Shown here piece by piece: positions 32,771 through 64,000 of a DNA stretch of 64,000 nt. Below the pieces are notes generated by a model. That model was given only the letters and a program-made list of their open reading frames with translations. It was not told where the DNA came from and ran no database searches. The position numbers and the translations under genes were made by a program. Origin of the DNA: Trypanosoma brucei (taxonomy: Eukaryota); the NCBI GenBank assembly GCA_000002445.1, contig CM000207.1, positions 2,368,001 to 2,432,000 of the forward strand, read 5' to 3'. Position 1 is the stretch's first letter. Each line of letters opens with the position of its first letter.

Positions 32771-32809
<39 letters not shown>
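32771..32809. repeat. Compound (AC)n-(AT)n microsatellite
   Basis: 'acacacacacacacacatatatatatatatatatatata' seen directly. Confidence 0.9.
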
Positions 32810-33248
32810 ATTTATATGGATTTATATGTTCTTATGTTTGTTTATGTGTGTGTTTATATGTATGTTTGTTTGTGCTTGTTTAGATGTTCTGTTTTGTCTT
32901 GTTTTGCCATATAAATTTATTACTATTGTGAACGGTTTGTCAAATAATAAAAACATTAAAAACCTCTCCCCTCCTTTCCCCTTCCTCAAAAAGGGAAAAA
33001 ACAGAAAGAAAAAGGAGTGGTGACGCACCGCTCTCCTTTGGTTTATTATTTGCTTAGATTTGTTTGTTTTCTTCGTTGTTGCTGGCATATAATAATCTAA
33101 GATTTTGTCTCTTCCATCTCTCCTCTTTTTCTCGGCTGTTTGTTTGTGTTTTTGTGTGTTTTTTTCCTTTTATCAAACGTACATGAATATATATATATAT
33201 GTATATTACTTTTGTTTTAGTCCTCTGATGATGTCGGCATTGCTTCCT

Positions 33249-33269
33249 TGTGTGTGTGTGTGTGTGTGT
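33249..33269. repeat. (TG)n microsatellite
   Basis: 'tgtgtgtgtgtgtgtgtgtg' seen directly. Confidence 0.9.
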
Positions 33270-38904: not shown

Positions 38905-41900
38905 GACATATGTCGCTAAGACACACATGAAAACATGCACAGTGGTCGTACCAAAGTATCCTCACCAGCGTAGCAACACAAAAAGTTAATGGAAATTTCC
39001 TATGGAAGAGAAACCATGCGATATTCCGGTAAGGCACTTGAAACCCTTCAGTAGCAGGCGATATCCACGGATCGTTAACAACATGGAATGAGAATCACAA
39101 CACACAAGGGGGAAAGGAATCGCAATTACTCTTTGAATATCAATACTTTTAGAGGGTCGAACTATCATCTGTCATCTGTCCCACGTGGCACTCTCACACA
39201 CCACATCAAGGGTGATGGGAGAAATTTTTTGTGGGAGCATACGATGGCCGATGAGTTGGTGAGAGATCAATTATGTTTGCAACACTGCCGTTTTGGTTAT
39301 TTTCTACTTGAGCACCTTTGATACAGTGGGCCATATCAGGGTTGTGCAATAAATGCGTAAAGTTAGTGGAGAAAAGTCTAACACCCTCTGCACCGCATCC
39401 TTACCAACAGAAGGAATGGCAGCAGCTCACTTAGATAAATCACTTCCCCCTGACAAGAATAGTTTAACAGAGGGCAGGTGAAAGGCACAGTGTTCAGCCT
39501 TTTACTGTTAAAAGCTGCAGTTACCTCCCTTCATTTTCTTACCAAACATCCCAAGACACAGCTTAAAGCATGGATTCTTTGTGGAAGACTTGACAGTGAG
39601 GAGAGGGAACGTGGATGGCTTTTCAGAAGGAACTGAATGTTATAGCTGTGATAGGAATCCGTATTTACTTCAGATAACTCGTCACGAAGAAAACAGGGTG
39701 TGAGGTGTTGGGAGGACATTTGGGGTCACGGTAATGCGGAAACGCGGCGACACCCACTCCATGTTGAATTTATATCCACACCGTTAATGTACTGGCAAAT
39801 CGGATATCCGCAGCGCCTTCTTACCCATAGAGTGCAAAGTGAAGAATACAAACTGACATTGACACTCTTCATTACTTCCAACATGTATTACACACGCGTT
39901 ACTCGGATGTAAGATATCGTGTGATTACAGGAGTTATTTCAAATATCAAGAGAGCTATGGAGAGTAATGGTTTCCTGATCTTTTTTCACCCATTCTGCCA
40001 TTTCATATCATCTCTCCCATGAAATTTCGATGATATGGGGAAACAATGTGTGGTGGAGCGTATATGTAAAAAGAAGACCTGAGGGCACTTTCACCCTGGG
40101 CACCTTGTCACACGAAATAGGAGCTATGGAAGACTTTCTCACTGAGGGTTGAGCCCCTTCCACACTATTTCATGGGATTCGTGCGAAGGGAAAACAGAAA
40201 AATTATGTTTTAGCAGTAGTCATGAAGAGTTTAATTTTGTGTGAAGTAATAACCCTGAGAACACTGAAACACTTCCATGAGATGTGTGGAAGAATGTCAA
40301 AATGTCAAGAAAGCTCAAAATACTTCACTTTTTGGTTCTTTTTTGATTTTGCTAGAGGACAAGGGTGAAACATGCAAGGCACTATGTACTGGGTTGTATT
40401 TTTAGTGGCGGTACTACAGGGTATTCATTTAGTGTCGGGCCAGGAGGAGATATTGAATGAACAAGAGTTTGAAGCGTTGTGTCGAATGATAAATTGGGCA
40501 GAAAGGGGACTGAAGCACATAAAAGTAACAAAACGAGTTACCCAAGAAGCTCTGAAAATAGGCGTAAGATATCTTGAAGTGGCCGGTGAGGAAAATGCTG
40601 CTGAACTCGCTGAGGCACAGGACTATTCTTGTACGAAGAGAATGGAGGATCGGAAAAGGAATTGTGGGCTGTACAAAACATTTTGGGAAGAGGCGCAGAG
40701 AGTATTGAACAAAGGGGTTGACAGCGGAGAAAGACCTGAGCGAAAAAAAAACGGCTTGCGGGAGCACAGTGCAGAGATTAGAAAAAAGGCAATGGAAGTG
40801 GCAGATATATATCACGAAATCGAAGCGAAGAGTCCATCTGGACAAGTAGAAAAGATTGAAGAACAGCTCAATAAAGCTCTTTATGGAAGGACACACACTG
40901 CTGAAGAGATAAGGGAAAGAGAAGAGCGAAGCAGGGTGTGCGGGAAAACATTACCAAATCCACCTAATAGAGAAGACCAATCACTAGCCGTGGATTTGCT
41001 GTGCTTGTGTGCAATGCACGGCTCTTGGAACGGCAGGGAGATATGCTGCGCAGACTGCACCACAGGAAGAAATAGCGAGGAGTGGAATCCAGAATCAAAC
41101 AGCGCGCACCGCTGGGAATTTCTGAAACAGAAGTGTGCGGGAGTCATTCCAAGCTATGGTAGCACGGGGGAAAGACTGCGTGATGCAAAACAAAATTTTA
41201 TGGATGCAGTAACGAAAATAACTACAAGGAGGGGGGAGCAGTTGTCCAAACTAGGAGAAAAGCAAAACAACAACGTAAAAGACTGCGGCGCGGACACAAG
41301 CAAGAGCCAAGGAATATGCATGCTGTACGGAGCAGTTGACGGAGTGAACCTGCCCTGGATGAAAACTTTGGAAAGTGTCGAAGACAGGATAGGACTTCTG
41401 ATGCAAGAGAGCCAAGACAAGACATCAAAACTTGAGAGAATTAAAGAGCTAAGTCAAGAGATAGAAAGCTTAATCAAAGGTGATACGGGGCGAGGAAGAC
41501 AACAGGGAAGACAGAAACGGAGTGTGGATACCGAGAACAGTGTCCCAGAAACCCCAGCTGACCCGAGCGATCCAACACAGTCAACCACAGATACCAATAG
41601 AAAAAAGCAAGGTGAAAGGAAACCGATATCAACAGGTAACGGTGCATCCAAAAGCTACGGTGGAGATGAGGTTGATTCTTACGATTCCAAATGCGATGGA
41701 GAAAACTCGGCATGCTCAGATTCACCAGCAAAGCCAACAGTAAAAAGCAGCAAAAGTGCTATAAATTGTCCACTGGGATTAATTTTGCTTTTGGTATAAA
41801 CGAAAAGTTCCAACACAAGGTAAGGAAAAAGAGATGGAATTGGTTGTGTTTGCGGCATCTCAATATTCCACACGGAGTGGGATGGTGTGCATTTCAAAAC

Positions 41901-44900
41901 TTGTACAGGAGACACGTGATGCGTCAGAGCAATCGTGCTCAGCAGCACAGCCATCCAGGAAGCCTAAACGAAAGAGGGAAATGTTGGGAGGGTTTATGCT
42001 TCGTGATACTAGTAATGCGTGTTGTTGAGAACCTTTTCATATTAAAAGGAACACTACAAAAACTGAAAGCATTTACGAATGATGGGAAAGCTCATAGAGG
42101 CTATAAACGGCTAAAATGTACCGGCCGTACTGAGTGGGTGGTGTGAAAATAAAAAGGGATATGTTGTAGAGAGTGTCAATACAGGAAGGCTACACAAATG
42201 GAAAGGAATAATAAATACAGAAAAAGGGACGTCATAATATTTTACTGAGCTCCATGCAGGAAGTGCAAGGGATATTTCCAATGGGGAAGTTGGGAAGGTT
42301 AAAAAAAAAGGCGAAAACATATGAGTGATAATGTAAATATAGTCTGATGGAAGGAAGTGTTGCTTTGGAAAAAGACAGACAAATAACTAAAAGAGGATTG
42401 ACTGGAGAAAATGATGCCAGGCGAAACACATAAAAAAATGGGTTCGGGAAGCATGGATATTTCGAACTTGGAACATAAAGACAAAAGAGCAGGAAAAGTT
42501 GTGGGAAATGGCATGTTATATATTTGCATCGTTATAGCAAAAAAAACTGTTTGGTGTGTCGAATGAGTGAAGGAACTGAGGCACTCAAGACCGCTGAATA
42601 AGAAAATGGAGAAGGAAAGCCACGGAAAGTAATGAGGGGATATCTTGAAAGCCGCGCACACAGACACGTACACTTGATAGCGGGGTGTGAAAAAGCAAGG
42701 AGTGGAACAAAAGCCTTCATCGCTATGATGGTTAAGAAATACGACACCACCACAATGCGCTGTATAATTCAAAGCAGACGTATTATTAAAGGGATCGGTA
42801 TTAGTGGAAATACCTGTGGTATTAACCTTTGCGGTGCTTGAAGTGATGGCATGAAAAAGATTAGAGATACCCTCTTCTGTGTTGTGTCGGATACATGGAA
42901 AAAGAAAGTGTGTGCTTGGCCTAAGGATGTAATGTGCTAAACCATAAGGCAGTAATAAAATACCTCAAAGCAATTCTATCGCCAAAAGGAATCGATGATG
43001 CTGTGGTTCAGACGAGAAATATCACACTACAGAATCCGACATTGCATGGGACGCAACTATGTGTCAACGCGGCGGTGATATAAGCTATCAAAGCAAAAAA
43101 TGATGCAATTATGGGGATTTATCATGCAGCAGCGTTGTCTACTATGGAAAATGCAGTAACCACTGAAAAGGAGGAAACATGCTTCAAGGAGCAAAAAGTA
43201 GCAGTGATTGCTGTAACAACAAGATTGTGGTTGTAAATAAAAAAAAAGAAAAGGAAGCGAAACTACGACCCAAGGATATTTAGAGTAGTATCGAAACTGC
43301 CTAAACATCACTAATGAATGCATATTTACCAAATGCGAATATATATGTATATGTGAATATATACGTACATCAATATTCTACAAAAATAGTGCTTTGCAGC
43401 GTGTGAGACTTTCAAAACATTTTTTGTGGAACACTTAAGCATAATTGTTGTTAATGGAAAATTGATCTATGGATACCTTCTTTTTGCTACATGTATTTTG
43501 AATTTGTTTGAGAGGAAAATGGTAACATCTCTGAGGTAAACTCTGGGACAATATAAAAGTGCTGGAGAAAATTTCTTGGTTTGACAGTAGCAATATCATG
43601 AACTAAAGAAGTGATTAAAAGATCTGTAACACGGGAGTATGTGCTTTTGCCATTGTACGATTTTCTTGATATATGCATTGAAGTGATTGATTGAATAGGG
43701 GTGCAAGTCTCATGAAACATGCTCTTCATTCAACCAAGGCTTTTTAGGAATATGCAGCAAAAGTCGAAAAATGACTGACTTGACAACCAAAATGGCGTCC
43801 CTATTCTATTAGTGAAAATTCGAATGAAACAGCACATAATGGAACTACATGAAAATTCAAAGGAAATGTGATATCAAATTCCTAACCCGCTGTATCAAAT
43901 TTCTCACACACCTTTCATAAAAGTATTTTTACATACATGTTTGAATTGAAAACACTCGACAAAATAATTTATGTGATCTGCGTATGAAATGTGTGATGAA
44001 TTCTGCCCAATCGTGCTAATCTCTCTATTATTGTTAAACCTCACCTTACCATTTGTTTCAGTAAAGGCAAGAAAGCAATATTAAATGATGAAATACTGTT
44101 AAACGGTGAAGTTACAAAGGAATATCTTTTCCGCAACAGAGAGTAACTATCTGAGAGGAGTTTAATGAACCGTGTACAATGATAGTGTCAGCACACTAAG
44201 TCTTGGAACAGCATAAACAGACTAGGATAACCAAAGGGGAAGAAGTGACACCTGGTGCTATGCAGTAACTAGCTTCAGAGGCAAAAAAAAGGCTGCTCAA
44301 TCCTATGGAAGCAATGTAACCTCACAGCCGTAGCAGTAGCGTGAATAAGAAAGGAAATGTGAACTTAGAAAAAACATATTGAACTCAAAGTGAAAAAGCA
44401 GAAGCAGTCAACCGCATAGAGGTATCAAAGGCATAACGTAGTTTGTTGGAAGGGGCGCCGAGCAAAATCAAGTTTTAGGCAGGTGATCCGGTATGGATGT
44501 ATCACACTGCACATGGATGCCACAAACCAAGAGACTTTGAATAGATGAAAGGAAAGATGAGAGACTTCGCGTCTATCAGGCGTGCTTGAGTTAGGGGCTG
44601 TAGTGGAAAGCAAACACAAACTGCTTACCCGAAGAGGGACAGTAACATGAACAATCCGAAATGGGTTTCAAACTATCTGGCACAATATCATTTTGACTGG
44701 GTCTGAGAGAGAGAGCTCTTTGGCCAGAGACAAACACGCGCGTTACTATAACCTTACAAATGACTCGAATACAGATATCAAATGCAATATTCTAAACGAA
44801 TAAAAACAAGGCTCAAGAGGCAACAATGCGGAAGATTCCGTTGAGTTACTTTACGTTAGCGTGAGGGTAGGAAAGAAAATGAAGAGATTTTGTGAATCTG

Positions 44901-47363
44901 GAAAAGGAAATGTGAGAACGCAACCCTACAACAGCTTTTAAAATATCCCATGGACTAAAGCGTTGAATAGAATTGACGGGAAAATGAGCAACCTGACTGT
45001 TAGCAAAGACAAGGGAAACTATGGCAAAGCTAACCTAGTTAAGCTGTGGCATCGCCAATTTAATTAAAACAAGCCAGAGTGAAGAGAGGATGCCATTCAG
45101 AGTTATAAGAAAGTAAAGCCATGAAAGTATAATTGGCACGATTACTTTGTTAAATTACGATACAAATACGAGTAAAACACAAATAATAATTATGGGAGCA
45201 AGCCAGGAGTTACCTGTGAAGGTGAAATTACTGCTGATTATAATAGTGCGGGTGTCTCTCGAATGAAACGCGAAAACCGTCGGCACAGTACAGCGTCCAC
45301 GCACTCAAACTGTGAAAGAGGATGTCAGTGGGTCAACGGTGAGATTGTGAGGCCACATCGCAAGCCAGTTATCTAAAACAGTGTGGGATTTGTTCAAACA
45401 TTACCCAGATTATATTTGTTTCTGTTTGTAAACGTGTGATTAGGCACTAAACTTCAATTCTAGCAGTGTTTGAATCTGTAGTACAATTAATATTTACCCC
45501 TTTCGTTTGAAAGTTAGTATAACTCTACGGTTTTGTCGGTCATTCAACGTAGTCTTGAAAGGGCCCAAAAGCACAAATACGTGACTTCTTAACATTTCAT
45601 CAGAGATGCACTACACCACACGGGTGAGCACATTGCCGTAACTAGGGGGTAGGTTTACTTTTTTGACACAGCTTCAAAAAGGTAGAACCTCGAATATGAT
45701 GCAAGTGGACCTCAGGTGGGGACTATCTGGCGCAAGAAAACGCTAGCAGAACTCGGGTCTCTCCCTCGCTTGAGGTAAAAGTTGTGTTGCATTGCGGGCT
45801 TCGGTGACGATTGCTCACTCCTTATTCAGATTTTTGAGGTTACCAAGCATGTAAAGCTAAGGGAGTGCAGTTCTTTCTCTGTAGTTGTTGGGTGAGCGGT
45901 TATGTAAATGTGTATATCTTCACATTTTTATATTTAAATGTTGGCTTTTACGAATTTTTTTGTTTGCAATGGGTTGAAATTACACGGCAACGACGTGGTT
46001 CAAGGTGTGAATTTTACTGATTTAGTTTTTGACGCCATCTCAGTTAGTGAAAGGATACGATGGCGATCCGCAAAGGGGAGGAAAAGGGCTTCCAAATTGC
46101 AGAGACGTACCAAAAATTGACAGGAATTTAGGTTGCTCAAAGGAAAATAATTATAGATATTAAGCGGCAAGAAACTTTGTGCTGGAGAGGCTTCTGGGGT
46201 TGGATTCTGTTTGACAGAAACTGCACGCCATGGCTGATAAGTGAGCTGCTTCCCATGAGGCATAGACGGGTGAATAATGCTTCCCTCAGTTTTTTGAGTG
46301 GGAATTCGTCGCTGTAAAAGATTCACCTGGTGTGAAAAGAATTGATAGAGCGTATCCGAACATTTTAATTACTCCAATCTAAGGAACAAGAAGTGTGAAA
46401 CATCTGGTGAGGGTAGAACGTCTTGTTACCTTAGCTCCCTTGGGCGGAACACAGGTGTAGGGTCGTGTAAAAAAGGGACGAGAGGTGTGTCTTCCTATTG
46501 AAGTTGGAGGTCTCTAGCTGAAAAAAAAAAGCCACTGACTCTAGTGACACGAATAGTCCAGACAATATCCCTAGGCGCGCGCACCTCACAGGCCGGCAGA
46601 ATAGTAAAACTCAATTTTCACTACAATCCAGTTACCAAACTGTACATTTAATCTTACTCTTCCCACTGTAAAAACATATAAGTGTTATTCAACTCGGGTG
46701 CTGAATCCATACCAAAGCACATAGAGGTAACAAATAAAAGTCGCTATTTCTGAAAACTAATTCACACTTGCCTGCGAATGCACACCTTTCCTTTAACATT
46801 CGTAAGACAGTATAGGGTCCTACTGAAGTCCTGGTTTACACAAGATATTATATACGATTGGTCACGCAGTCACCTCTGCTGCTTTCCGGACAATAAAGTG
46901 ACTAACTGCGAAGCATGGCTCTCAATGGGAGAGATTTTCTAAGCGGGTTAAAGAGCCATACTATGGAGACTCATACATGTGTATATTATTGTTGGGGTGA
47001 TTCACCAGCCCTTTTTACAAAATGTATAATATCCTCTTGCATTTGGCAGTGAAGCATAAAAGCGTGCTGCTGTTGTACTGAATATATCCCCTTTCCTTTG
47101 CGGTACCCTCCTTTCTCTTTATAAATAATGAGCCTGGTGTGAATTAGAAGAGTGTGCGAATTTATCCAAAATAGAGTGGGTGTAATGGGAAGACACATCA
47201 TGTGGAGGACACTCCGTATGCTAGCAGCTGATGCTTACGGTGGAAGTGGAAGAAGCATTCAGTATCCGAGGCGTAGTGCCACCTTGCCATAAATTGGCTG
47301 TCGGAGTTGACAAGAGATCACTGAAGTGGCAACCCTCCAAGGGCCACTTAGTGAAGATGTGCG
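38905..47363 (+). repeat. Macro-repeat unit 1 (~8.46 kb) of a tandem triplication
   Basis: Sequence from 'tgtcgctaagacacacatgaaaacatgcacagtggtcgt' (38911) recurs at 47370 and 55824. ORF-track ORFs recur at offsets of +8459 and +8453. Sequence upstream of 38905 has no counterpart, so the array starts here. Confidence 0.9.
40372..41799 (+). CDS. Secreted Cys-containing GPI-type surface glycoprotein (475 aa), VSG/ESAG-like fold suspected; paralogue A
   Basis: Signal peptide 'MQGTMYWVVFLVAVLQGIHLVSG'. Early Cys in 'EFEALCRMINWAE'. 'AVDLLCLCAMHGSW' Cys cluster. Dibasic 'RQKRS'. Pro/Thr/Ser-rich stalk 'VPETPADPSDPTQSTT'. Cys-rich C-terminal module 'CDGENSACSDSP'. Hydrophobic tail 'INCPLGLILLLV'. 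Upstream polyY+AG 'cttcactttttggttcttttttgattttgctag'. Confidence 0.8.
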   Translation: MQGTMYWVVFLVAVLQGIHLVSGQEEILNEQEFEALCRMINWAERGLKHIKVTKRVTQEALKIGVRYLEVAGEENAAELAEAQDYSCTKRMEDRKRNCGLYKTFWEEAQRVLNKGVDSGERPERKKNGLREHSAEIRKKAMEVADIYHEIEAKSPSGQVEKIEEQLNKALYGRTHTAEEIREREERSRVCGKTLPNPPNREDQSLAVDLLCLCAMHGSWNGREICCADCTTGRNSEEWNPESNSAHRWEFLKQKCAGVIPSYGSTGERLRDAKQNFMDAVTKITTRRGEQLSKLGEKQNNNVKDCGADTSKSQGICMLYGAVDGVNLPWMKTLESVEDRIGLLMQESQDKTSKLERIKELSQEIESLIKGDTGRGRQQGRQKRSVDTENSVPETPADPSDPTQSTTDTNRKKQGERKPISTGNGASKSYGGDEVDSYDSKCDGENSACSDSPAKPTVKSSKSAINCPLGLILLLV

Positions 47364-53300: not shown

Positions 53301-55817
53301 TTACTTTACGTTAGCGTGAGGGTAGGAAAGAAAATGAAGAGATTTTGTGAATCTGGAAAAGGAAATGTGAGAACGCAACCCTACAACAGCTTTTAAAATA
53401 TCCCATGGACTAAAGCGTTGAATAGAATTGACGGGAAAATGAGCAACCTGACAGTGAGCACAAACAAGGGAAACTATGGCAAAGCTTACATAGTTAAGCT
53501 GTGGCATGTCAATTTAATTAAAACGTGCCAGAGTGAAGAGAGGATGCCATTCAGAGTTATAAGAAAGCAAAGCCATGAAAGTGTAATTGACACGATTACT
53601 TTGTTACAATCCGATACAAATACGAGTAAAACACAAATAATAATTATGGGAGCAAGCCAGGAGTTACCTGTGAAGGTGAAATTACTGCTGATTATAATAG
53701 TGCGAGTGGCTCTTGACACAAATGCGAAAACCGTAAGCACAGTTCAGCGTCCACGAGCTCAAACTGTGAAACAGGATGAAAGCTGGTCAACGGTGAGATT
53801 GTGAGGCCACATCGCGAGTCAGTCATCTAAAACAGTGTGAATTTCGTTCAAACATTACCCAGGTTATATTTGTTTCTGTTTGTAAACGTGTGATTAGGCA
53901 CTAAACTTCAATTCTAGCAGTGTTTGAATCTGTAGTACAATTAATATTTACCCCTTTCGTTTGAAAGTTAGTATAACTCTACGGTTTTGTCGGTCATTCA
54001 ACGTAGTCTTGAAAGGGCCCAAAAGCACAAATACGTGACTTCTTAACATTTCATCAGAGATGCACTACACCACACGGGTGAGCACATTGCCGTAACTAGG
54101 GGGTAGGTTTACTTTTTTGACACAGCTTCAAAAAGGTAGAACCTCGAATATGATGCAAGTGGACCTCAGGTGGGGACTATCTGGCGCAAGAAAACGCTAG
54201 CAGAACTCGGGTCTCTCCCTCGCTTGAGGTAAAAGTTGTGTTGCATTGCGGGCTTCGGTGACGATTGCTCACTCCTTATTCAGATTTTTGAGGTTACCAA
54301 GCATGTAAAGCTAAGGGAGTGCAGTTCTTTCTCTGTAGTTGTTGGGTGAGCGGTTATGTAAATGTGTATATCTTCACATTTTTATATTTCAATGTTGGCT
54401 TTTACGAATTTTTTTGTTTGCAATGGGTTGAAATTACACGGCAACGACGTGGTTCAAGGTGTGAATTTTACTGATTTAGTTTTTGACGCCATCTCAGTTA
54501 GTGAAAGGATACGATGGCGATCCGCAAAGGGAAGGAAAGAGACTTCCGGATTGCAGAGACGTACCAAAAATTGACAGGAATTTAGGTTGCTCAAAGGAAA
54601 ATAATTATAGATACTAAGCGGTAAGAAACTTTGTGCTGGAGAGGCTTCTGGGGTTGGATTCTGTTTGACAGAAACTGCACGCCATGACTGATAAGTGAGC
54701 TGCTTCCCCTGAGGCATAGACGTGTGAAAAATGCTTCCCTCAGTTTTTTGAGTGGGAATTCGTCGCTGTAAAAGATTCACCTGGTGTGAAAAGAATTGAT
54801 AGAGCGTATCCGAACATTTTAACTATTCCAATCTAAGGAACAAGGAGTGTGAAACATCTGGTGAGGGTAGAACGTCTTGTTACCTTAGCTCCCTTGGGCG
54901 GAACACAGGTGTAGGGTCGTGTAAAAAAGGGACGAGAGGTGTGTCTTCCTATTGAAGTTGGAGGTCTCTAGCTGAAAAAAAAAAGCCACTGACTCTAGTG
55001 ACATGAATAGTCCAGACAATATCCCTAGGCACGTGCACCTCACAGGCCGGCAGAATAGTAAAACTTAATTTTCACTACAATCCAGTTACCAAACTGTACA
55101 TTTAATCTTACTCTTCCCACTGTAGAAACATATAAGTGTTATTCAACTCGGGTGCTGAATCCATACCAATTCACATAGAGGTAACAAATAAAAGCCGCTA
55201 TTTCTGAAAACTAATTCACACTTGCCTGCGAATGCACACCTCTCCTTTAACATTCGTAAGACAGTATAGGGTCCTACTGAAGTCCTGGTTTACACAAGAT
55301 ATTATATACGATTGGTCACGCAGTCACCTCTGCTGTTTTCCGGACAATAAAGTGACTAACTGCGAAGCATGGCTCTCAATGGGAGAGATTTTCTAAGCGG
55401 GTTAAAGAGCCACACTATGGAGACTCATACGTGTGTATATTATTGTTGGGGTGATTCACCAGCCTTTTTTACAAAATGTATAATATCCTCTTGCATTTGG
55501 CAGTGAAGCATAAAAGCGTGCTGCTGTTGTACTGAATATATCCCCTTTCCTTTGCGGTACCCTCCTTTCTCTTTATAAATAATGAGCCTGGTGTGAATTA
55601 GAAGAGTGTGCGAATTTATCCAAAATAGAGTGGGTGTAATGGGAAGACACATCACGTAGAGGACACTCCGTATGCTAGCAGCTGATGCTTACGGTGGAAG
55701 TGGAAGAAGCATTCAGTATCCGAGGCGTAGTGCCACCTTGCCATAAATTGGCTGTCGGAGTTGACAAGAGATCACTGAAGTGGCAACCCTCCAAGGGCCA
55801 CTTAGTGAAGATGTGCG
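47364..55817 (+). repeat. Macro-repeat unit 2 (~8.45 kb)
   Basis: Near-identical to unit 1 outside the central part of the embedded gene. Confidence 0.9.
48831..50255 (+). CDS. Paralogue B of the 475-aa surface glycoprotein family (474 aa)
   Basis: First ~50 and last ~95 residues identical to A; the middle ~330 residues are a mosaic. Confidence 0.8.
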   Translation: MQGTMYWVVFLVAALQGIHLVLGQEEILNEQEFEALCRMINWAERGLKHINLARQVTEEALKIGVRYLEVAGEEEVTELTELQEKACMSNKKTSHEKNCGLYKTFWEESQEALKRTARSQAPHRGRNSLQYHTAEGIKIKVMEVADTYHEVKKEILKLRTDNMEEQLNQALYGVGHFTGEVKGGDSDRSRVCGQNLGNRDATGGWSLAVDLLCLCARHISWSSVKSVCCEECGTGENSNTWNPALDGALHWEFLKENCPGDNTNHHTEGEQLKSAKKNFMAKVSKIATIPYRTMYKLGDSKNIQTKQCGANIGTGQGICVYYGSDNGANLHWMQALERVENDVEVLLQDSKYKSTKLKRIKELSQEIQNLIEGGTPRGRQKRSVDTENSVPETPADPSDPTQSTTHTNEKKRIVRKPISTGNNASKSYGGDEVDSYDSKCDGENSACSDSPAKPTVKSSKSAINCPLGLILLLV

Positions 55818-58800
55818 CCATAATGTCGCTAAGACACACATGAAAACATGCACAGTGGTCGTGCCAAAGTATCCTCACCACAGTAGCAACACAAAAAGTA
55901 AGGGTGAGTTCCTATGGAAGAGAAACCATGCGATATTCCGGTAAGGCACTTGAAACCCTTCAGTAGCAGGCGATATCCAAGGATTGTTAACAACATGGAA
56001 TGAGAATCACAACACACAAGGGGGAAAGGAATCGCAATTACTCTTTGAATATCAATACTTTTAGAGGGTCGAACTATCATCTGTCATCTGTCCCACGTGG
56101 CACTCTCACACACCACATCAAGGGTGATGGGAGAAATTTTTTGTGGGAGCATACGATGGCCGATGAGTTGGTGAGAGATCAATTATGTTTGCAACACTGC
56201 CGTTTTGGTTATTTTCTACTTGAGCACTTTTGATACAGTGGGCCATATCAGGGTTGTGCAATAAATGCGTAAAGTTAGTGGAGAAAAGTCTAACACCCTC
56301 TGCACCGCATCCTTACCAACAGAAGGAATGGCAGCAGCTCACTTAGATAAATCACTTCCCCCTGACAAGAATAGTTTAACAGAGGGCAGGTGAAAGGCAC
56401 AGTGTTCAGCCTTTTACTGTTAAAAGCTGCAGTTACCTCCCTTCATTTTCTTACCAAACATCCCAAGACACAGCTTAAAGCATGGATTCTTTGTGGAAGA
56501 CTTGACAGTGAGGAGAGGGAACGTGGATGGCTTTTCAGAAGGAACTGAATGTTATAGCTGTGATAGGAATCCGTATTTACTTCAGATAACTCGTCACGAA
56601 GAAAACAGGGTGTGAGGTGTTGGGAGGACATTTGGGGTCACGGTAATGCGGAAACGCGGCGACACCCACTCCATGTTGAATTTATATCCACACCGTTAAT
56701 GTACTGGCAAATCGGATATCCGCAGCGCCTTCTTACCCATAGAGTGCAAAGTGAAGAATACAAACTGACATTGACACTCTTCATTACTTCCAACATGTAT
56801 TACACACGCGTTACTCGGATGTAAGATATCGTGTGATTACAGGAGTTATTTCAAATATCAAGAGAGCTATGGAGAGTAATGGTTTCCTGATCTTTTTTCA
56901 CCCATTCTGCCATTTCATATCATCTCTCCCATGAAATTTCGATGATATGGGGAAACAATGTGTGGTGGAGCGTATATGTAAAAAGAAGACCTGAGGGCAC
57001 TTTCACCCTGGACACCTTGTCACACGAAATAGGAGCTATGGAAGACTTTCTCACTGAGGGTTGAGCCCCTTCCACACTATTTCATGGGATTCGTGCGAAG
57101 GGAAAACAGAAAAATTATGTTTTAGCAGTAGTCATGAAGAGTTTAATTTTGTGTGAAGTAATAACCCTGAGAACACTGAAACACTTCCATGAGATGTGTA
57201 GAAGAATGTCAAAATGTCAAGAAAGCTCAAAATACTTCACTTTTTGGTTCTTTTTTGATTTTGCTAGAGGACAAGGGTGAAACATGCAAGGCACTATGTA
57301 CTGGGTTGTATTTTTAGTGGCGGTACTACAGGGTATTCATTTAGTGTCGGGGCAGGATATAGTGAATCAACAGGAGTTTGAAGCGTTGTGTCGAATGATA
57401 AATTGGGCAGAAAGGGGACTGAAGCACATAAAACTAGCTAAACAAGTGACGGAAGAAGCTCTGAGCATCGGCATAAGATATCTTGAAGTCGCTGATGCAG
57501 ATAGCGCTGCTCAACTTGGCGCGGCAGAACACGATGCTTGTATGGATAAAAGAGAGGTTCGTGAAAAAAACTGCGGATTGTACAAAACATTTTGGGAAGA
57601 GTCACAGAGGCTATTAAAGGAAAAGCATGAAAGATCGCAAGCACATCACCGAGGAAGGAACAGTTTGCAATATCATACAGCGGAAGAAATTAAAAGCAAA
57701 GTAATGGAAGTGGCGGATATATTTCACGAAGTCAAGTGGGAACTCTTAGAACTCAAAGTAAATAATATGGAGGAGCAACTCAATCAAGCTCTTTATGGAA
57801 GGACATACTCCGCAGAAGAAATAAGGGAAAGAGAAGAGCGAAGCAGGGTGTGCGGACAAAGCTCGCGTAGTGAAATGATTATTGGGGGCCAATCACTAGT
57901 AATGGATTTGTTGTGCTTGTGTGCAATGCACAGTTCTTGGAAAGAGATGAGGGTATGCTGCGCAGACTGCACTACGGGAGAGAACGGCAACACATGGAAC
58001 CCAGGATCAAACGGAGCACCACGCTGGAAATTTCTGAAACAAAAGTGTGCGGGAGCCACCACTAGTTACGTTAGCGTACGCAAAACCCTGCGTGGTGCAA
58101 AACAGGATTTTATGGATGCCGTAACGGAAATAAGTGCAAACAGAAGAACAAATTTGTACAAACTTGGGGAAAAGCAAAACAAAGAAATAAAAGACTGTGG
58201 AGCAGACAAAAACAGCAAAGAAGGAATATGTGTGTTTTACAGAGAGCGTGATGGAGTGGTGTTTTGGATGAAAGCGTTGGAAAACGTGGACAACAAGATG
58301 GAAGTTCTGCTTCAAGACAGAACAAAGAAGACATCAAAACTTGAGAGAATTAAAGAGCTAAGTCAAGAGATAGAAAGCTTAATCAAAGGTGATACGGGGC
58401 GAGGAAGACAACAGGGAAGACAGAAACGGAGTGTGGATACCGAGAACAGTGTCCCAGAAACCCCAGCTGACCCGAGCGATCCAACACAGTCAACCACACA
58501 TACCAATGAAAAAAAGCGAATTGTAAGAAAACCGATATCAACAGGTAACAATGCATCCAAAAGCTACGGTGGAGATGAGGTTGATTCTTACGATTCCAAA
58601 TGCGATGGAGAAAACTCGGCATGCTCAGATTCACCAGCAAAGCCAACAGTAAAAAGCAGCAAAAGTGCTATAAATTGTCCACTGGGATTAATTTTGCTTT
58701 TGGTATAAACGAAAAGTTCCAACACAAGGTAAGGAAAAAGAGATGGAATTGGTTGTGTTTGCGGCATCTCAATATTCCACACGGAGTGGGATGGTGTGCA

Positions 58801-61800
58801 TTTCAAAACTTGTACAGGAGACATGTGATGCGTCAGAGCAATCGTGCTCAGCAGCACAGCCATCCAGGAAGCCTAAACGAAAGAGGGAAATGTTGGGAGG
58901 GTTTATGCTTCGTGATACTAGTAATGCGTGTTGTTGAGAACCTTTTCATATTAAAAGGAACACTACAAAAACTGAAAGCATTTACGAATGATGGGAAAGC
59001 ACATAGAGGCTATAAACGGCTAAAATGTACCAACCGTACTGAGTGGGTGGTGTGAAAATAAAAAAGTATATGTTGTAGAGAATGTCGATACCGGAAGGCT
59101 ACAAGAATGGAAGGAATAATAAATACAGAAAAAGAGACGCCATACTTTTCACTGAGCTATCTACAGGACATGGAAGGGATATTTCCAATGAGGAAGTTGG
59201 GAAGGTTTCAAACAAAAAAGGAGAAAACATATGAGTGATAATGTTAATGTAAGTAACGGAAGGAAGTGTTGCTTTGGAAAAAGACAGACAAATAACTAAA
59301 AGAGGATTGACTGGAGAAAATGATGCCAGGCGAAACACATAAAAAAATGAGTTCGGGAAGCATGGATATTTCGAACTTGGAACATAAAGACAAAAGAGCA
59401 GGAAAAGTTGTGGGAAATGGCATGTTATATATTTGCATCGTAGTCGCAAAAAACTGTTTGTTGTGTTGAATGAGTGGAGAAACTGAGGCACTCACGGCCG
59501 CTGAATAAGAAAATGGAGAAGGAAAGCCATGGAAAGTAATGAGGGAATAGCTTGAAAGGCACGCACACACAGACACACACACGTGATAGCGGGGTGTGGA
59601 AAAGCAAGGAGTGGAACAAAAGCCTTCATCGCTATTATGGCTAAGAAATACGACACCACCAGAATGCACTGCAGTGTTTAAAGGCAGACGAATTATTAAA
59701 GGGATCAGTATTATTGGCTGAAATACCTGTGGTATTAACCTTTGCGGTGCTTGAAGTGATGGCATGAAAAAGATTAGAGACCTCTCTTTGTTGTTAGGTC
59801 GGATGCATGGAAAAAAGAGAGTGCGTGGCTGCTCTAAGAATGTAACGTGCAAACTACAAGGCAGTAATAAAAGACCCCAAAGCAATTCCATGGCCAAAAG
59901 GACTTGATGGCGCCGTGGTTCAGACGAGAAATATCACACTACAGAATCCGACATTGCATGGGACGCAACTGCGTATCAACGCGGCAGTGATATAAGCTAT
60001 CAAAACAAAAAATTATGCAATCACGGAGGTTTTTCATAAAGTAGCGTTGTCTACTATGGAAAATGCAGTAACCACTGAAAAGGAGGAAACATGCTTCAAG
60101 GAGCAAAAAGTAGCAGTGATTGCTGTAACAACAAGATTGTGAGTGGAAATAAAACAAACAGGAAGCGAAACTACGACCCAAGGATATTTAGAGTAGTATC
60201 GACACTGCCAAAGCATCACTAATGAATGCATATTTACCGAATGCGAATATATATGTATATGTGAATATATACGTACATCAATATTCTACAAAAATAGTGC
60301 TTTGCAGCGTGTGAGACTTTCAAAACATTTTTTGTGGAACACTTAAGCATAATTGTGATTAATGGAAAATTGATCTATGGATACCTTCTTTTTGCTACAT
60401 GTATTTTGAATATGTTTGAGAGGAAAATGGTAACATCTCTGAGGTAAAATCTGGAACAATATAAAAGTGCTAAAGGAAATTTCTGGGTTTGACAGTAGCA
60501 ATATCATGAACTACAACAGTGGTTATAAGATCTGTAAGACGGAAGTACATGTTTGTGCCATTGTACGATTTTCTTGATATATGCATTGAAGTGATTTGAA
60601 TGAATAGGGGTGCAAGTCTCATGGAACATGCTCTTCATTCAACCAAGGCTTTTTAGGAATATGCAGCAAAAGTCGAAAAATGACTGACTTGACAACCAAA
60701 ATGGCTTCCCTATTCTATTAGTGAAAATTCGAATGAAACAGCACATAATGGAACTACATGAAAATTCAAAGGAAATGTGATATCAAATTCCTAACCCGCT
60801 GTATCAAAATTCTCACACACCTTTCATAAAGGTATTTTAACATACATGTTTGAATTGAAAACACTCGATAAAATAATTTATGTGATATGCATGTGAAATG
60901 TGTGATGAATTCTGCCCAATCGTGCTAATATCGCTATTATTGTTAAACCTCACCTTACCATTTGTTTCAGCAAAGGCAAGAAGGAAATACTAAATGATGA
61001 AATACTGTTAAACGGTGAGGGTACAGAGGAATATCTTTTCCGGAACAGAGAGTAACTATCTGAGAGGAGTTTAATGAACCGTGTACAATGATAGTGTCAG
61101 CACACCAAGTCTTGGAACAGCATAAGCAGGCTAGGATAACAAAAGGGGAAGAAGTGACATCTGGTGCTATACAGTAACTAGCTTCAGAGGCAAAAGGAAA
61201 AGCTGCTCAACCCTATGGAAGCAATGTAACCTCACAGCCGTAGCAGTAGCGTGACTAAGAAAGGAAATGTGAACTTAGAAAAAAACATATTGAACTCAAA
61301 GTGAAAAAGCAGAAGCAGTCAACCGCACAGAGGTATCAAAGGCATAACGTAGTTTGTTGGAAGGGGCGCCGAGCAAAATCAAGTTTTAGGCAGGTGATCC
61401 GGTATGGATGTATCACACTGCGCACGGATGCCACAAACCAAGAGACTTCGAAGATATGAAAGGGAAGATTAGAGACTTCGCGTCTATCAGGCGTGCTTGA
61501 GTTAGGGACCGTAGTGGAAAGCAAACACAAACTGCTTACCCGAAGAGGGACAGTAACATGAACAATCCGAAATGGGTTTCAAACTATCTGGCACAATTCC
61601 ATTTTGACTGGGTGTGAGAGAGAGTTCTTGGGACAGAGACAAACACGCGCGTTACTATAACCTTACAAATGACTCGAATACAGATATCAAATGCAATATT
61701 CTAAATGAACAATAAAAACAAGGCTCAAGAGGCAACAATGCATAAGATTCCGTTGAGTTACTTTACGTTAGCGTGAGGGTAGGAAAGAAAATGAAGAGAT

Positions 61801-64000
61801 TTTGTGAATCTGGAAAAGGAAATGTGAGAACGCAACCCTACAACAGCTTTTAAAATATCCCATGGACTAAAGCGTTGAATAGAATTGACGGGAAAATGAG
61901 CAACCTGACAGTGAGCACAAACAAGGGAAACTATGGCAAAGCTTACATAGTTAAGCTGTGGCATGTCAATTTAATTAAAACGTGCCAGAGTGAAGAGAGG
62001 ATGCCATTCAGAGTTATAAGAAAGCAAAGCCATGAAAGTGTAATTGACACGATTACTTTGTTACAATCCGATACAAATACGAGTAAAACACAAATAATAA
62101 TTATGGGAGCAAGCCAGGAGTTACCTGTGAAGGTGAAATTACTGCTGATTATAATAGTGCGAGTGGCTCTTGACACAAATGCGAAAACCGTAAGCACAGT
62201 TCAGCGTCCACGAGCTCAAACTGTGAAACAGGATGAAAGCTGGTCAACGGTGAGATTGTGAGGCCACATCGCGAGTCAGTCATCTAAAACAGTGTGAATT
62301 TCGTTCAAACATTACCCAGGTTATATTTGTTTCTGTTTGTAAACGTGTGATTAGGCACTAAACTTCAATTCTAGCAGTGTTTGAATTTGTAGTACATTTG
62401 ATATTTACCTCTTTTGTTGGAAAGCCAGTACGATTTTACGGTTTTGCCGATTGTTCAACGTAGTCTTGAAAGGGCTCAAAAGCACAACTACGTGACTTCT
62501 TAACATTTCATCAGAGATGCACTACACTACACTACACGGGTGAGCACATCGCCGTAACTCGGGGGCAGGTTTACTTTTTTGACTCAGCATCAAAAAGGTA
62601 GAACCTTGAATATGATGCAAGTGGACCTCAGGTGGGGACTATCTGGCGCAAGAAAACGCTAGCAGAACTCGGGTCTCTCCCTCACTTGAAGTAAAAATTG
62701 TGTTGCATTGCGGGCTCCGGTGACGATTGCTCACTCTTTATTCAGATTTTTGGGGTTACCAAGCATGTAAAGCTAAGGAAGTGCAGTTCTTTCTCTGTAG
62801 TTGTTGGGTGAGCGGTTATGTAAATGTGTATATCTTCACATTTTTATATTTCAATGTTGGCTTTTACGAATTTTTTTGTTTGCAATGCGTTGAAATTACA
62901 CGACAACGACGTGGCTCAGGGTGTTACATGTACTGATTTAATTTTTGACGCCATCTCAGTTAGTGAAAGGATACGATGGCGATCCGCAAAGGGAAGGAAA
63001 GAGACTTCCGGATTGCAGAGACGTACCAAAAATTGACAGGAATTTAGGTTGCTCAAAGGAAAATAATTATGGATACTAAGCGGTAAGAGACTTTGTGCTG
63101 GAGAGGCTTCTGGGGTTGGATTCTGTTTGAACAGAAACTGCACGCCATGACTGATAAGTGAGCTGGTTCCCCTGAGGCATAGACGGGTGAATAATGCTTT
63201 CCTCAGTTTTTTTGAGTGGGAATTCGTCGCTGTAAAAGAGTCACCTGGTGTGAAAAGGATTGATAGAGCGTATCCGAACATTTTAACTATTCCAATCTAA
63301 GGAACAAGAAGTGTGAAACATCTGGTGAGAGTAGAACGTCTTGTTACCTTAGCTCCCTTGGGCGGAACACAGATTTAGGGTCGTGTAAAAGAGGGACGAG
63401 AGGTGTGTCTTCCTATTGAAGTTGGAGGTCTCTAGCTGAAAAAAAGCCACTGATTCTAGTGACATGAATAGTCCAGACAATATCCCTAGGCGCGCGCACC
63501 TCACAGGCCGGCAGAATAGTAAAACTCAATTTTCACTACAATCCAGTTACCAAACTGTACATTTAATCTTACTCTTCCCACTGTAAAAACATATAAGTGT
63601 TATTCAACTCGGGTGCTGAATCCATACCAAAGCACATAGAGGTAACAAATAAAAGCCTCTATTTCTGTAAACTAATTCACACTTGCTTGCGAATGCACAC
63701 CTCTCCTTTAACATTCGTAAGACAGTATAGGGTTTTACTGAAGTCCTGGTTTACGCAAGATATTATATACGGTTGTTTACGCAGTCACCTCTACTGGTTT
63801 CTGGACAAGAATGTGACCAGCTGCAAAGCATGGCTCTCAATGGGAGTGATTTGCGAGTCATGTTAAAGAGCCATACTATGGAGACTCATACATGTGTATA
63901 TTATTGTTGGGGTGATTCACCAGCCCTTTTTACAAAATGTGTAATATTCTCTTGCATTTGGCAGTGAAGCATAAAAGCGTGCTGCTGTTGTACTGAATAT
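55818..64000 (+). repeat. Macro-repeat unit 3 (truncated by the window end; more diverged from units 1 and 2)
   Basis: Collinear with units 1 and 2 up to the window end. The 3' flank of the gene (59.1-60.2 kb) is noticeably more diverged. Confidence 0.85.
57284..58708 (+). CDS. Paralogue C of the 475-aa surface glycoprotein family (474 aa)
   Basis: Same conserved ends. The middle shares some blocks with A ('ALYGRT..AEEIREREERSRVCG', 'SKLERIKELSQEIESLIKGDTGRGRQQGRQKR') and others with B ('HRGRNSLQYHTAEE.K.KVMEVAD', 'THTNEKKRIVRKPISTGNNASKSYGG'). Confidence 0.8.
   Translation: MQGTMYWVVFLVAVLQGIHLVSGQDIVNQQEFEALCRMINWAERGLKHIKLAKQVTEEALSIGIRYLEVADADSAAQLGAAEHDACMDKREVREKNCGLYKTFWEESQRLLKEKHERSQAHHRGRNSLQYHTAEEIKSKVMEVADIFHEVKWELLELKVNNMEEQLNQALYGRTYSAEEIREREERSRVCGQSSRSEMIIGGQSLVMDLLCLCAMHSSWKEMRVCCADCTTGENGNTWNPGSNGAPRWKFLKQKCAGATTSYVSVRKTLRGAKQDFMDAVTEISANRRTNLYKLGEKQNKEIKDCGADKNSKEGICVFYRERDGVVFWMKALENVDNKMEVLLQDRTKKTSKLERIKELSQEIESLIKGDTGRGRQQGRQKRSVDTENSVPETPADPSDPTQSTTHTNEKKRIVRKPISTGNNASKSYGGDEVDSYDSKCDGENSACSDSPAKPTVKSSKSAINCPLGLILLLV

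What the first reader, a model, noticed from the sequence alone, without database searches (positions are those of the whole stretch)
38905..64000. Tandem ~8.45-kb macro-repeats each carrying a single 1.4-kb surface-protein gene in ~7 kb of conserved non-coding DNA
Trypanosomatid polycistrons are normally gene-dense, with intergenic regions under about 1 kb. Here three (possibly more, beyond the window) 8.45-kb units are near-identical over about 7 kb of sequence with no credible ORF, and each carries one secreted/GPI-type gene. That much conserved non-coding sequence per gene suggests one of three things: very recent segmental duplication; homogenisation by gene conversion; or embedded functional non-coding elements (decayed retroposon or pseudogene, ncRNA, or long processed UTRs). 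I could not recognise ingi/RIME or any RNA gene by eye. This looks like an under-described surface-antigen expansion locus.
Basis: seen in the sequence. Interest (0 to 1): 0.8.

Follow-up and report, generated by a model that had tools for sequence, protein, structure and literature searches.

The report
Tandem VSG-related surface-gene array
This is the already annotated tandem array of VSG-related surface-protein genes on Trypanosoma brucei TREU927 chromosome 9; its long spacers look conserved only because the repeat units keep copying each other, while the surface-exposed part of each gene is old, very divergent and mosaic.

Summary
There are three head-to-tail units of about 8,454 bp, starting at 38903, 47361 and 55815; the third is cut by the window end. 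Each unit has one 474-475 aa ORF and no other credible gene.

The window is T. brucei brucei TREU927 chromosome 9: the BARP array, a GRESAG4 adenylate cyclase, an ESAG6-like gene, then this array. The ORFs are b-type VSG-like proteins (Pfam VSG_B, 5e-84). They are annotated as "VSG, atypical / VSG-related" (Tb927.9.15700 and neighbours), and the segmental duplication was noted in the 2010 gambiense genome paper.

The spacers carry no protein domain in any frame, no Rfam RNA, and no dispersed repeat shared with the rest of the window.

Spacer identity (99% upstream, 94-98% downstream) is not conservation by selection:
- The single gambiense copy differs by 6-20% in the same DNA, against 0-3% in the DNA upstream of about 37.8 kb.
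- Variable spacer sites fall in long blocks, which indicates gene conversion.
- The neighbouring BARP array shows the same pattern.

Verdict: a known kind of locus showing concerted evolution of the flanks around old, recombining antigen cores. Interest is low to moderate.

The parts
38903..47360 (+). Repeat unit 1 (8,458 bp)
   Evidence: Left junction at 38903-38905, with no similarity to the unit ends before it.
47361..55814 (+). Repeat unit 2 (8,454 bp)
55815..64000 (+). Repeat unit 3, cut by the window end about 270 bp before its end
40372..41799 (+). VR gene 1: 475 aa b-type VSG-like protein with a hydrophobic N-terminal (signal-like) stretch and a hydrophobic C-terminal (GPI-signal-like) tail. 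Identical to the NCBI protein 'VSG, atypical, putative' of T. b. brucei TREU927.
   Evidence: Pfam VSG_B 5.2e-84, residues 9-358. 100% match to P0001. Top Foldseek PDB hits are class-B VSGs, from a weak model.
48831..50255 (+). VR gene 2: 474 aa (= P0007), 63% identical to gene 1
57284..58708 (+). VR gene 3: 474 aa (= P0002), 69% identical to gene 1 and 68% to gene 2
40480..41500 (+). Hypervariable core of VR gene 1, coding for the N-terminal domain. It is 66-75% identical between units, dS 0.69-1.06, dN/dS 0.34-0.39. The boundaries are sharp, at about 40440-40524 and about 41504-41642. Equivalent cores lie at about 48939-49956 and about 57392-58409.
40325..40354 (+). U-rich tract ending in AG, 18 nt upstream of the ATG. 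Candidate trans-splice acceptor (inferred, not shown).
   Evidence: sequence read
39521..39543 (+). Strongest + strand polypyrimidine tract of the unit, repeated at 47980-48002 and 56433-56455
41650..42150 (+). Best-kept stretch of the unit: 100% identical among units at 41650-41799 and 94-96% identical to gambiense. It covers the end of the CDS and the stretch just 3' of the stop codon, and is a candidate proximal 3' UTR (inferred). Three short overlapping ORFs here stay open in all copies, but coding tests are inconclusive.
42284..43130 (+). Example conversion block: U1 = U2 exactly, and U3 differs at 81 sites
44687..45409 (+). Example conversion block with the opposite pattern: U2 = U3 exactly, and U1 differs at 49 sites
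44325..47360 (+). The 3.0 kb part of the unit that has no counterpart in the single T. b. gambiense copy. Homology stops abruptly at 44324, and in gambiense an RHS gene follows on the - strand.
44146..45013 (+). Faint, unconfirmed VR-like patches that might be the relic of an older VR copy: about 44146-44440 matches residues 28-123, and 44945-45013 matches residues 325-349
   Evidence: hmmsearch gave 5.5 bits in U3, above all 300 shuffles. Not confirmed by the frameshift-tolerant DP (z about 2) or by Pfam.

Best explanation
The region is the chromosome-internal tandem array of VSG-related (VR, 'atypical VSG') genes at the right-hand edge of the core of T. brucei brucei TREU927 chromosome 9. 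It lies downstream of the BARP array, a GRESAG4 adenylate cyclase and an ESAG6-like gene.

Each 8.45 kb unit makes one mRNA for a b-type VSG-like surface protein with signal-like and GPI-signal-like hydrophobic ends. The rest of the unit is untranslated or intergenic DNA with no gene, retroelement ORF or known RNA.

The array is old, not new. The N-terminal-domain cores of the genes are as diverged as old paralogs. They are reshuffled among family members by short segmental gene conversions, as in mosaic VSG formation.

The gene ends and the roughly 7 kb of flanking DNA are repeatedly homogenised within a genome by gene conversion or unequal crossing-over between units (concerted evolution). 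Exchange probably stops at the edges of the cores because they are too diverged for heteroduplex formation, because selection keeps the variants, or both (inferred). Unequal exchange between the long identical flanks also explains copy-number differences: five copies in TREU927 and one in the gambiense DAL972 assembly.

Shown here: the anatomy, the divergence contrast, the mosaic pattern and the lack of cross-subspecies conservation. Inferred: the mechanism that halts conversion, the transcript structure and the surface function.
For: Identity and context
- 100% protein match to TREU927 'VSG, atypical', with four more paralogs on the same 3.06 Mb record.
- Pfam gives VSG_B, GARP, adenylate-cyclase and A-type VSG domains in the expected order.
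- BARP genes are Tb927.9.15520-15640. Tb927.9.15680 is 'ESAG6' and Tb927.9.15700 is 'VSG-related'.
- Five VR genes, Tb09.244.2200-2330, lie next to RHS Tb09.244.2180.
- The duplication is noted in PMC2854126.

Old cores
- dS 0.69-1.06, dN 0.27-0.36, dN/dS 0.34-0.39.
- Cores are 66-75% identical within 927 and 68-70% to gambiense, so they do not group by genome.

Homogenised flanks
- Upstream: 99.2-99.6% within 927 against about 91% to gambiense.
- Downstream: 93.6-98.7% within 927 against 92-93.5% to gambiense.
- Variable sites fall in 50 runs against 183 expected, with blocks of exact identity alternating between unit pairs.

Mosaic genes
- The nearest relative switches every 30-90 residues.
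- Gambiense gene against equiperdum and P0005: Fisher p = 1.3e-9.

The spacer is not selectively conserved
- 927 against gambiense is 97-100% identical up to 37.8 kb, then 80-94% in the spacer.
- Equiperdum behaves likewise.

The spacer is empty
-.

The pattern is general
- The BARP array has intergenic identity of 91-99% against 59-78% in the variable part of its CDS.

Expression and location (from the literature)
- VR mRNAs are 3-7.6 fold higher in bloodstream forms.
- Tb927.9.15700 is 4.7 fold higher in bloodstream forms.
- VR proteins are enriched on the bloodstream-form surface (PMC4587319).
Against: - I could not read units 4 and 5 or the array's right end; the TREU927 record is not retrievable with these tools. 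The copy number of five and the array end therefore rest on protein records and the literature.
- Only two other strains were available, and the equiperdum contig is gapped and ends inside the unit.
- The single copy in gambiense could in principle be an assembly collapse.
- A recent amplification followed by import of diverged cores from donors outside the array cannot be excluded, because pseudogene donors would not be in the protein database.
- There is no RNA evidence for the spacer, so a long regulatory 3' UTR or a lncRNA is not ruled out.
Confidence: 0.72

Rival explanations
1. Recent T. b. brucei-specific segmental amplification of a single ancestral unit, followed by rapid adaptive point-mutation divergence of the surface protein. 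This is the general reading given to such arrays in the 2010 gambiense genome paper.
For: - Gambiense has one copy at the syntenic site, followed by an RHS gene.
- Flanks within 927 are 94-99.6% identical.
- PMC2854126 describes similar arrays as recently multiplied and rapidly diverging.
Against: - Synonymous divergence in the core is near saturation (dS 0.69-1.06) while the flanks differ by 0.5-6%.
- dN/dS is 0.34-0.39, not above 1.
- Cores do not group by genome.
- The gambiense gene is a mosaic of blocks 83-96% identical to different 927 paralogs.
- The gambiense spacer is 6-20% diverged from all 927 units.
Confidence: 0.05
2. Recent amplification of the 8.45 kb unit, after which each core was overwritten by segmental gene conversion from diverged VR or VSG-like donors elsewhere in the genome. 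On this reading the flanks are young rather than homogenised.
For: - The boundaries of the divergent core are sharp.
- Family members are clearly mosaic.
- Two further TREU927 family members, P0004 and P0009, carry no contig record in the search output, unlike the five paralogs on the chromosome 9 record.
Against: - No donor with more than 71% overall identity to any of the three cores was found among 5.8 billion proteins.
- The spacer itself holds alternating blocks of 7-10% divergence, which implies older unit lineages that are being patched.
- U3's downstream spacer is as far from U1 and U2 as the gambiense copy is.
Confidence: 0.15
3. The spacer is kept similar by purifying selection because it holds functional non-coding elements, such as a very long regulatory 3' UTR, a lncRNA or small RNAs.
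For: - The + strand is purine-rich and poor in polypyrimidine tracts for 3.6 kb past the stop codon.
- The stretch just 3' of the stop codon, to about 42.28 kb, is the best-kept spacer segment against gambiense (94-96%).
- lncRNAs alternating with repeated genes, and near VSG/ESAG/RHS genes, are reported in T. brucei (PMC10048164).
Against: - Between subspecies the spacer is 6-20% diverged, several times more than the DNA upstream of about 37.8 kb.
- No Rfam family hits at E<=1.
- The between-unit differences come in conversion blocks, not as an even low level of change.
- The identity level equals that of BARP intergenic DNA.
Confidence: 0.06
4. The spacer is a decayed mobile element (ingi, DIRE, RIME, SLACS, VIPER, RHS) or a decayed gene copy, or the repeat is an assembly artefact.
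For: - There are faint VR-like patches at 44146-45013. The hmmsearch score in U3 exceeds all 300 shuffles.
- In gambiense, an RHS gene follows the unit.
Against: - There is no RVT, endonuclease, RNase H, RHSP or any other Pfam hit in six frames at E<=1.
- There is no long A-run or repeat shared with the rest of the window or with the gambiense RHS region.
- The relic is not confirmed by the frameshift-tolerant DP (z about 2) or by Pfam VSG_B.
- An artefact is excluded by 787 variable sites and three different CDSs, and by separate probe sets and proteins in the literature.
Confidence: 0.05

Closest known systems
VSG-related (VR) / 'atypical VSG' genes of T. brucei (Marcello & Barry 2007, as cited in PMC2854126, PMC2771046 and PMC3605285)
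   Same: - b-type VSG N-terminal domain.
- Chromosome-internal location at the edge of the core.
- No 70-bp repeat core motif and no VSG 3' UTR 16-mer found.
- Moderate mRNA levels, higher in bloodstream forms.
- The proteins in the window are the annotated ones.
   Different: Nothing essential: this is that family. The contrast between old mosaic cores and homogenised 7 kb flanks was not described in the papers I could read.
Strain-specific segmental duplications of surface-protein genes in T. b. brucei (Jackson et al. 2010, PMC2854126, Table 1, Fig. 2, Fig. S1)
   Same: - One copy in gambiense against about five tandem copies in TREU927.
- Unit size of several kb.
- Some parts of the unit are identical while the surface-protein CDS differs by 30-50%.
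- Their Fig. S1 concerns a chromosome 9 VSG island with a duplicated atypical VSG.
   Different: That paper reads such cases as recent multiplication with rapid adaptive divergence. Here the synonymous divergence, the mosaic structure and the cross-subspecies comparison point to old variants with concerted evolution of the flanks.
BARP (brucei alanine-rich protein) tandem array, in the same window at 1-25 kb
   Same: It is a tandem array of GPI-anchored surface-protein genes with near-identical intergenic DNA (91-99%) and a variable CDS segment (59-78%).
   Different: - The unit is 1.8 kb rather than 8.45 kb, with 14 copies.
- The protein belongs to the GARP family.
- Expression is in tsetse salivary-gland stages.
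Silent VSG cassettes and mosaic VSG formation in subtelomeric arrays
   Same: Shared ends with a divergent N-terminal-domain core, and segmental gene conversion that makes mosaics among family members.
   Different: - No 70-bp repeats and no conserved VSG 3' UTR 16-mer (motifs recalled from memory).
- The genes are intact.
- By their position in the chromosome core, they are presumably expressed in place from the polycistronic unit and not copied to a telomeric expression site (not tested here).
- The family has only nine members in the database.

Membership tests
b-type (class B) VSG superfamily | N-terminal domain matching the VSG_B profile | tested here: met
   Pfam PF13206 VSG_B, E = 5.2e-84, 283 bits against a cut-off of 25, covering residues 9-358 and profile positions 2-351 of 352.
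b-type (class B) VSG superfamily | Long helical-bundle fold like solved class-B VSGs | tested here: inconclusive
   The AF2 model is poor (mean pLDDT 52.6, pTM 0.53), with long helices at 30-87, 91-116, 130-171 and 328-369. The top 15 Foldseek PDB hits are all class-B VSGs (VSG3, VSG11, VSG615, mVSG1954), but E is only 2e-3 to 1 and TM is 0.23-0.38. phmmer against PDB sequences found nothing.
b-type (class B) VSG superfamily | Signal peptide and C-terminal GPI-addition signal | tested here: inconclusive
   Read by eye only. There is a hydrophobic N-terminus (MYWVVFLVAVLQGIHLVSG) and a hydrophobic C-terminal tail (NCPLGLILLLV), invariant in all nine members. No dedicated predictor was run.
Canonical (switchable) VSG cassette | 70-bp repeats upstream of the gene | tested here: not met
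   The core motif GTTGTGAGTGTG (recalled from memory) has no match at up to 2 mismatches upstream of any of the three genes, and the total count is below chance. TRF finds no tandem repeat of about 76 bp in the unit.
Canonical (switchable) VSG cassette | Conserved 16-mer TGATATATTTTAACAC in the 3' UTR | tested here: not met
   There is no match at up to 3 mismatches anywhere in 38.9-64 kb. The motif was recalled from memory.
VSG-related (VR) genes | VSG-like gene in a chromosome-internal, non-telomeric position, lacking 70-bp repeats and annotated as VR or atypical VSG | tested here: met
   - The source names of the identical proteins are 'VSG, atypical, putative'.
- Tb927.9.15700 is 'VSG-related'.
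- The position is directly after the BARP, GRESAG4 and ESAG6-like genes.
- The criteria are as stated in PMC2771046.
VSG-related (VR) genes | Expressed as mRNA and protein outside the telomeric expression site | not testable with these tools
   Literature only:
- Five Tb09.244 VR genes are 3.1-7.6 fold higher in cultured bloodstream forms.
- Tb927.9.15700 is 4.7 fold higher in bloodstream forms.
- VR proteins are enriched on the bloodstream-form surface.
Retroposon-derived spacer (ingi/RIME/DIRE/SLACS/VIPER) | Remnant of reverse transcriptase, endonuclease, RNase H or recombinase ORFs | tested here: not met
   A six-frame Pfam scan of the whole unit at E<=1 gave no family in any frame.
Retroposon-derived spacer (ingi/RIME/DIRE/SLACS/VIPER) | Nucleotide similarity to reference elements, including the non-coding RIME | not testable with these tools
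   No reference sequences are available here. Indirect evidence: no A-run longer than 10, and no repeat shared with the rest of the window or with the gambiense RHS region.
Known non-coding RNA families | Match to an Rfam covariance model | tested here: not met
   There were 0 hits at gathering score in the whole window and 0 hits at E<=1 in unit 1.

The most novel reading that the evidence does not exclude
The VR array may be a small, chromosome-internal diversification system, not just a duplicated locus.

- The 7 kb of homogenised flanks would serve as long homology arms that keep the units pairing.
- Short conversion tracts would then shuffle old N-terminal-domain variants into new mosaic surface proteins, and copy number could expand or collapse between strains.
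- This would be an in-place expressed counterpart of mosaic VSG formation, maintained by balancing selection.
- A purine-rich, multi-kilobase 3' region might act as a shared stage-regulatory UTR or lncRNA.
Probability: 0.15. Interest if true: 0.5.

Novelty: already known. Interest (0 to 1): 0.25.

Why it matters
The locus shows, in a fully readable example, how a trypanosome keeps a small set of old, very different surface-protein variants inside nearly identical repeat units. That corrects the common reading of such arrays as recent duplications with rapid adaptive divergence.

For genome scans the lesson is practical. High identity between repeat units says nothing about function unless it also holds between strains.

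The biology of VR proteins is still open. They are expressed and surface-exposed according to the literature, but have no known role. This array, with five copies in one strain and one in another, is a natural handle for asking whether VR diversity matters for host range or immune evasion.

Tried and rejected
1. Retrieving the rest of the array. Exact-protein look-ups for P0001, P0002, P0004, P0005, P0006 and P0009 all returned 'not on record'. Only the gambiense and equiperdum loci were obtained.

2. Pfam on DNA references failed because of stop codons. I repeated it with stops replaced by X and got no hits.

3. NCBIfam found nothing; it is a prokaryote-oriented library.

4. Rfam found nothing at gathering score or at E<=1.

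5. The hypothesis that the purine-rich 3.6 kb after the gene is a decayed VR copy:
- The family HMM gave a 5.5-bit match, above all 300 shuffles, plus a co-linear 'NIPWTKAL' patch.
- My own frameshift-tolerant profile alignment scored only z of about 2.
- Pfam VSG_B did not hit the pieces.
- I left it as unconfirmed.

6. Small ORFs in the spacer. None is kept open across copies except three overlapping ones next to the stop codon, and their pN/pS tests rest on 5-22 differences and are inconclusive.

7. Inferring transcript ends from polypyrimidine tracts. A strict scan gave one tract per unit. Reading the sequence showed further U-rich tracts, including one directly before the ATG, so I dropped the 'single 6 kb UTR' inference.

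8. Looking for transcript or lncRNA annotation of the spacer in supplements. The files were not held or not informative.

9. Marcello & Barry 2007 could not be read.

10. The 70-bp repeat consensus is not printed in PMC4858185, so the motif test rests on a motif recalled from memory.

Full report
**What is there**

A direct-repeat search and a self-BLASTN of the window show three head-to-tail copies of a unit of about 8,454 bp. They start at 38903, 47361 and 55815, and the third runs off the window end about 270 bp early. Each unit has one long ORF: 40372-41799, 48831-50255 and 57284-58708, of 474-475 aa.

**Where it comes from**

- The ORF of unit 1 is 100% identical to a protein that NCBI calls 'variant surface glycoprotein (VSG, atypical), putative' of Trypanosoma brucei brucei TREU927. 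It lies on a 3,057,547 bp record.
- Units 2 and 3 encode P0007 and P0002 of the same record. Two more paralogs, P0005 and P0006, are on it as well.
- The rest of the window fits chromosome 9:
  - 14 copies of a 1.8 kb unit encoding Pfam GARP-family proteins, the BARP array, Tb927.9.15520-15640;
  - a 346 aa ORF;
  - a GRESAG4-type adenylate cyclase;
  - a 435 aa A-type VSG-like ORF annotated 'ESAG6', Tb927.9.15680.
- The next annotated gene mentioned in the literature, Tb927.9.15700, is 'VSG-related, putative'.
- An older microarray paper lists five VR genes, Tb09.244.2330, 2310, 2280, 2240 and 2200, followed by an RHS gene, Tb09.244.2180.
- I infer that the array has five units in TREU927, three of them in the window.

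**What the gene is**

- Pfam VSG_B matches residues 9-358 at E = 5e-84.
- The nine family members share a hydrophobic N-terminus, 14 conserved cysteine columns and an invariant hydrophobic C-terminal tail.
- An AlphaFold model built on only nine sequences is poor (pLDDT 52.6). Its helical core nevertheless finds only class-B VSGs as its top 15 PDB matches, at weak scores.
- The canonical VSG cassette marks are absent. The 3' UTR 16-mer and the 70-bp-repeat core motif, both recalled from memory, are not found, and no tandem repeat of about 76 bp exists.
- This matches the published definition of VR genes.

**What the spacer is not**

- Six-frame translations of the whole unit, with stops masked, hit no Pfam family at E<=1. 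That means no reverse transcriptase, endonuclease, RHS or VSG domain.
- Rfam finds nothing at gathering score in the window, or at E<=1 in unit 1.
- The unit has no similarity to the rest of the window, to itself, or to the RHS-bearing DNA that follows the gambiense copy.
- It has no A-run longer than 10.
- Of the 19 other ATG ORFs of 50 aa or more in the part shared with gambiense, only three short overlapping ones next to the stop codon stay open in all four copies. Their substitution patterns are inconclusive.

**The key contrast**

Identity between units:

| Part of the unit | Identity between units |
|---|---|
| 1.47 kb upstream of the gene | 99.1-99.5% |
| 5.56 kb downstream of the gene | 94.0-97.9% |
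| whole CDS | 75-81% |
| CDS core (about 40480-41500) | 66-75% |

- The transitions are sharp: about 40440-40524 on the 5' side and about 41504-41642 on the 3' side.
- In the core, Nei-Gojobori dS is 0.69-1.06, dN is 0.27-0.36 and dN/dS is 0.34-0.39.
- Synonymous sites are thus more than ten times as diverged as the surrounding non-coding DNA. That excludes a recent duplication followed by fast adaptive change.

**Evidence for concerted evolution of the flanks**

- Outside the core there are 362 variable sites. They fall into 50 runs of the same odd-one-out pattern, against 183 expected and a minimum of 157 in 2000 shuffles.
- For example, at 42284-43130 U1 equals U2 and U3 differs at 81 sites. 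At 44687-45409 U2 equals U3 and U1 differs at 49 sites.
- The flanks group by genome: the upstream flank is 99.2-99.6% identical within 927 and about 91% to gambiense.
- The cores do not group by genome: 66-75% within 927 and 68-70% to gambiense.

**Evidence that the cores recombine**

- Among the nine proteins, the nearest relative changes every 30-90 residues, with jumps from about 60% to 83-100% identity.
- The gambiense protein follows the equiperdum one over columns 1-210 (96% identity). It is then closer to the TREU927 paralog P0005 over columns 211-330 (Fisher p = 1.3e-9 on informative sites).

**The spacer is not conserved between subspecies**

- The syntenic gambiense DAL972 locus has a single copy followed by an RHS gene on the opposite strand. 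Homology to the unit stops abruptly at window position 44324.
- TREU927 against gambiense is 97-100% identical up to about 37.8 kb. It then drops to 80-94% in the spacer and 68% in the core.
- The equiperdum contig behaves the same way.
- The best-kept spacer piece is the stretch just 3' of the stop codon, to about 42.28 kb (94-96%). It may be a regulatory proximal 3' UTR (inferred).

**A control in the same window**

The BARP array has intergenic identity of 91-99% and variable CDS segments at 59-78%. The pattern is therefore a general property of surface-gene arrays here.

**Interpretation**

The best-supported model is an old VR array. Its gene ends and flanks are repeatedly homogenised within each genome by conversion or unequal exchange. 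Its diverged cores are not homogenised and are shuffled by short conversions. Unequal exchange also explains the difference of five copies against one.

The main rival that I cannot exclude is recent amplification with import of cores from outside donors. It is weakened by two results:
- No donor was found.
- The spacer itself contains older lineages that are being patched.

**Comparison with the literature**

- Jackson et al. 2010 mention 'a segmental duplication in T. b. brucei of an atypical VSG' on a chromosome 9 VSG island (their Fig. S1). They describe similar arrays as recent and rapidly diverging.
- VR genes are defined and shown to be expressed in PMC2771046.
- VR proteins were found on the bloodstream-form surface (PMC4587319).
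- Jackson et al. 2013 note that VR genes are specific to T. brucei and resemble T. congolense VSGs.
- The locus is therefore already known. What this analysis adds is the dating argument and the cross-subspecies test.

**Loose ends**

- The 3 kb of each unit that is missing in gambiense (44325-47360) has no identified origin.
- The + strand is purine-rich for 3.6 kb past the stop codon.
- Faint VR-like patches at 44146-45013 beat all shuffles in HMMER, but failed my own frameshift-tolerant alignment test and the Pfam scan.
- No RNA data for the spacer could be consulted.

Noticed in passing
window 1-25300: There are fourteen tandem copies of a unit of about 1.8 kb (spacing 1775-1940 bp), each encoding a 254-326 aa GARP-family (BARP) protein. 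Intergenic DNA is 91-99% identical, while the middle of the CDS is only 59-78% identical. This is the same flank-versus-core contrast as in the VR array.
   Followed up: partly
window 14382-15362: One BARP copy (326 aa) has a completely different C-terminal half and a different hydrophobic tail (…FIAKYPFHLCTIFTFYTLL instead of …LLLMAGLFLGSVL). This suggests a chimeric or replaced 3' part.
   Followed up: no
window 25447-26487: A 346 aa ORF lies between the BARP array and the adenylate cyclase. It has a hydrophobic N-terminus and C-terminus and an alanine-rich helical look. It has no Pfam hit above cut-off and no significant BLASTP similarity to BARP (E = 0.08).
   Followed up: partly
window 32100-34050: An AT-rich (GC 0.33), T-skewed, low-complexity stretch with (TA)n, (AT)n and (TG)n microsatellites and short T-rich tandem repeats lies between the adenylate cyclase and the ESAG6-like gene. 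This is also where most indels against gambiense lie.
   Followed up: no
window 37800-38903: Divergence between TREU927 and gambiense jumps from 0-3% to 6-20% at about 37.8 kb. That is about 1.1 kb to the left of the repeat boundary, so the deeply diverged haplotype extends beyond the duplicated unit.
   Followed up: partly
L002 13954-21431 (T. b. gambiense FN554972.1): The single gambiense VR unit ends abruptly at the equivalent of window position 44324. It is followed by unrelated DNA carrying a 593 aa RHS gene on the opposite strand. The 3 kb at 44325-47360 of the TREU927 unit has no counterpart there.
   Followed up: partly
window 41679-41954 (- strand): A 91 aa antisense ORF overlaps the 3' end of the VR gene. 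It is open in all three units and in gambiense, with 7 synonymous and 4 non-synonymous differences (pN/pS 0.18). The numbers are too small to judge.
   Followed up: partly
window 44146-45013 (and the equivalents in units 2 and 3): There are two faint, co-linear, same-strand patches resembling VR residues 28-123 and 325-349, including 'NIPWTKALNRIDGK' against the family motif 'LPWMKALxxVE'. They may be the relic of an older VR copy. HMMER scores them above all shuffles, but my frameshift-tolerant alignment test and Pfam do not confirm them.
   Followed up: yes
L001 8361-9794 vs L002 10001-11431: The T. equiperdum and T. b. gambiense VR genes are 94-100% identical over codons 1-240 and only 60-73% identical over codons 241-330. 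This is a clean example of a replaced segment between closely related lineages.
   Followed up: yes
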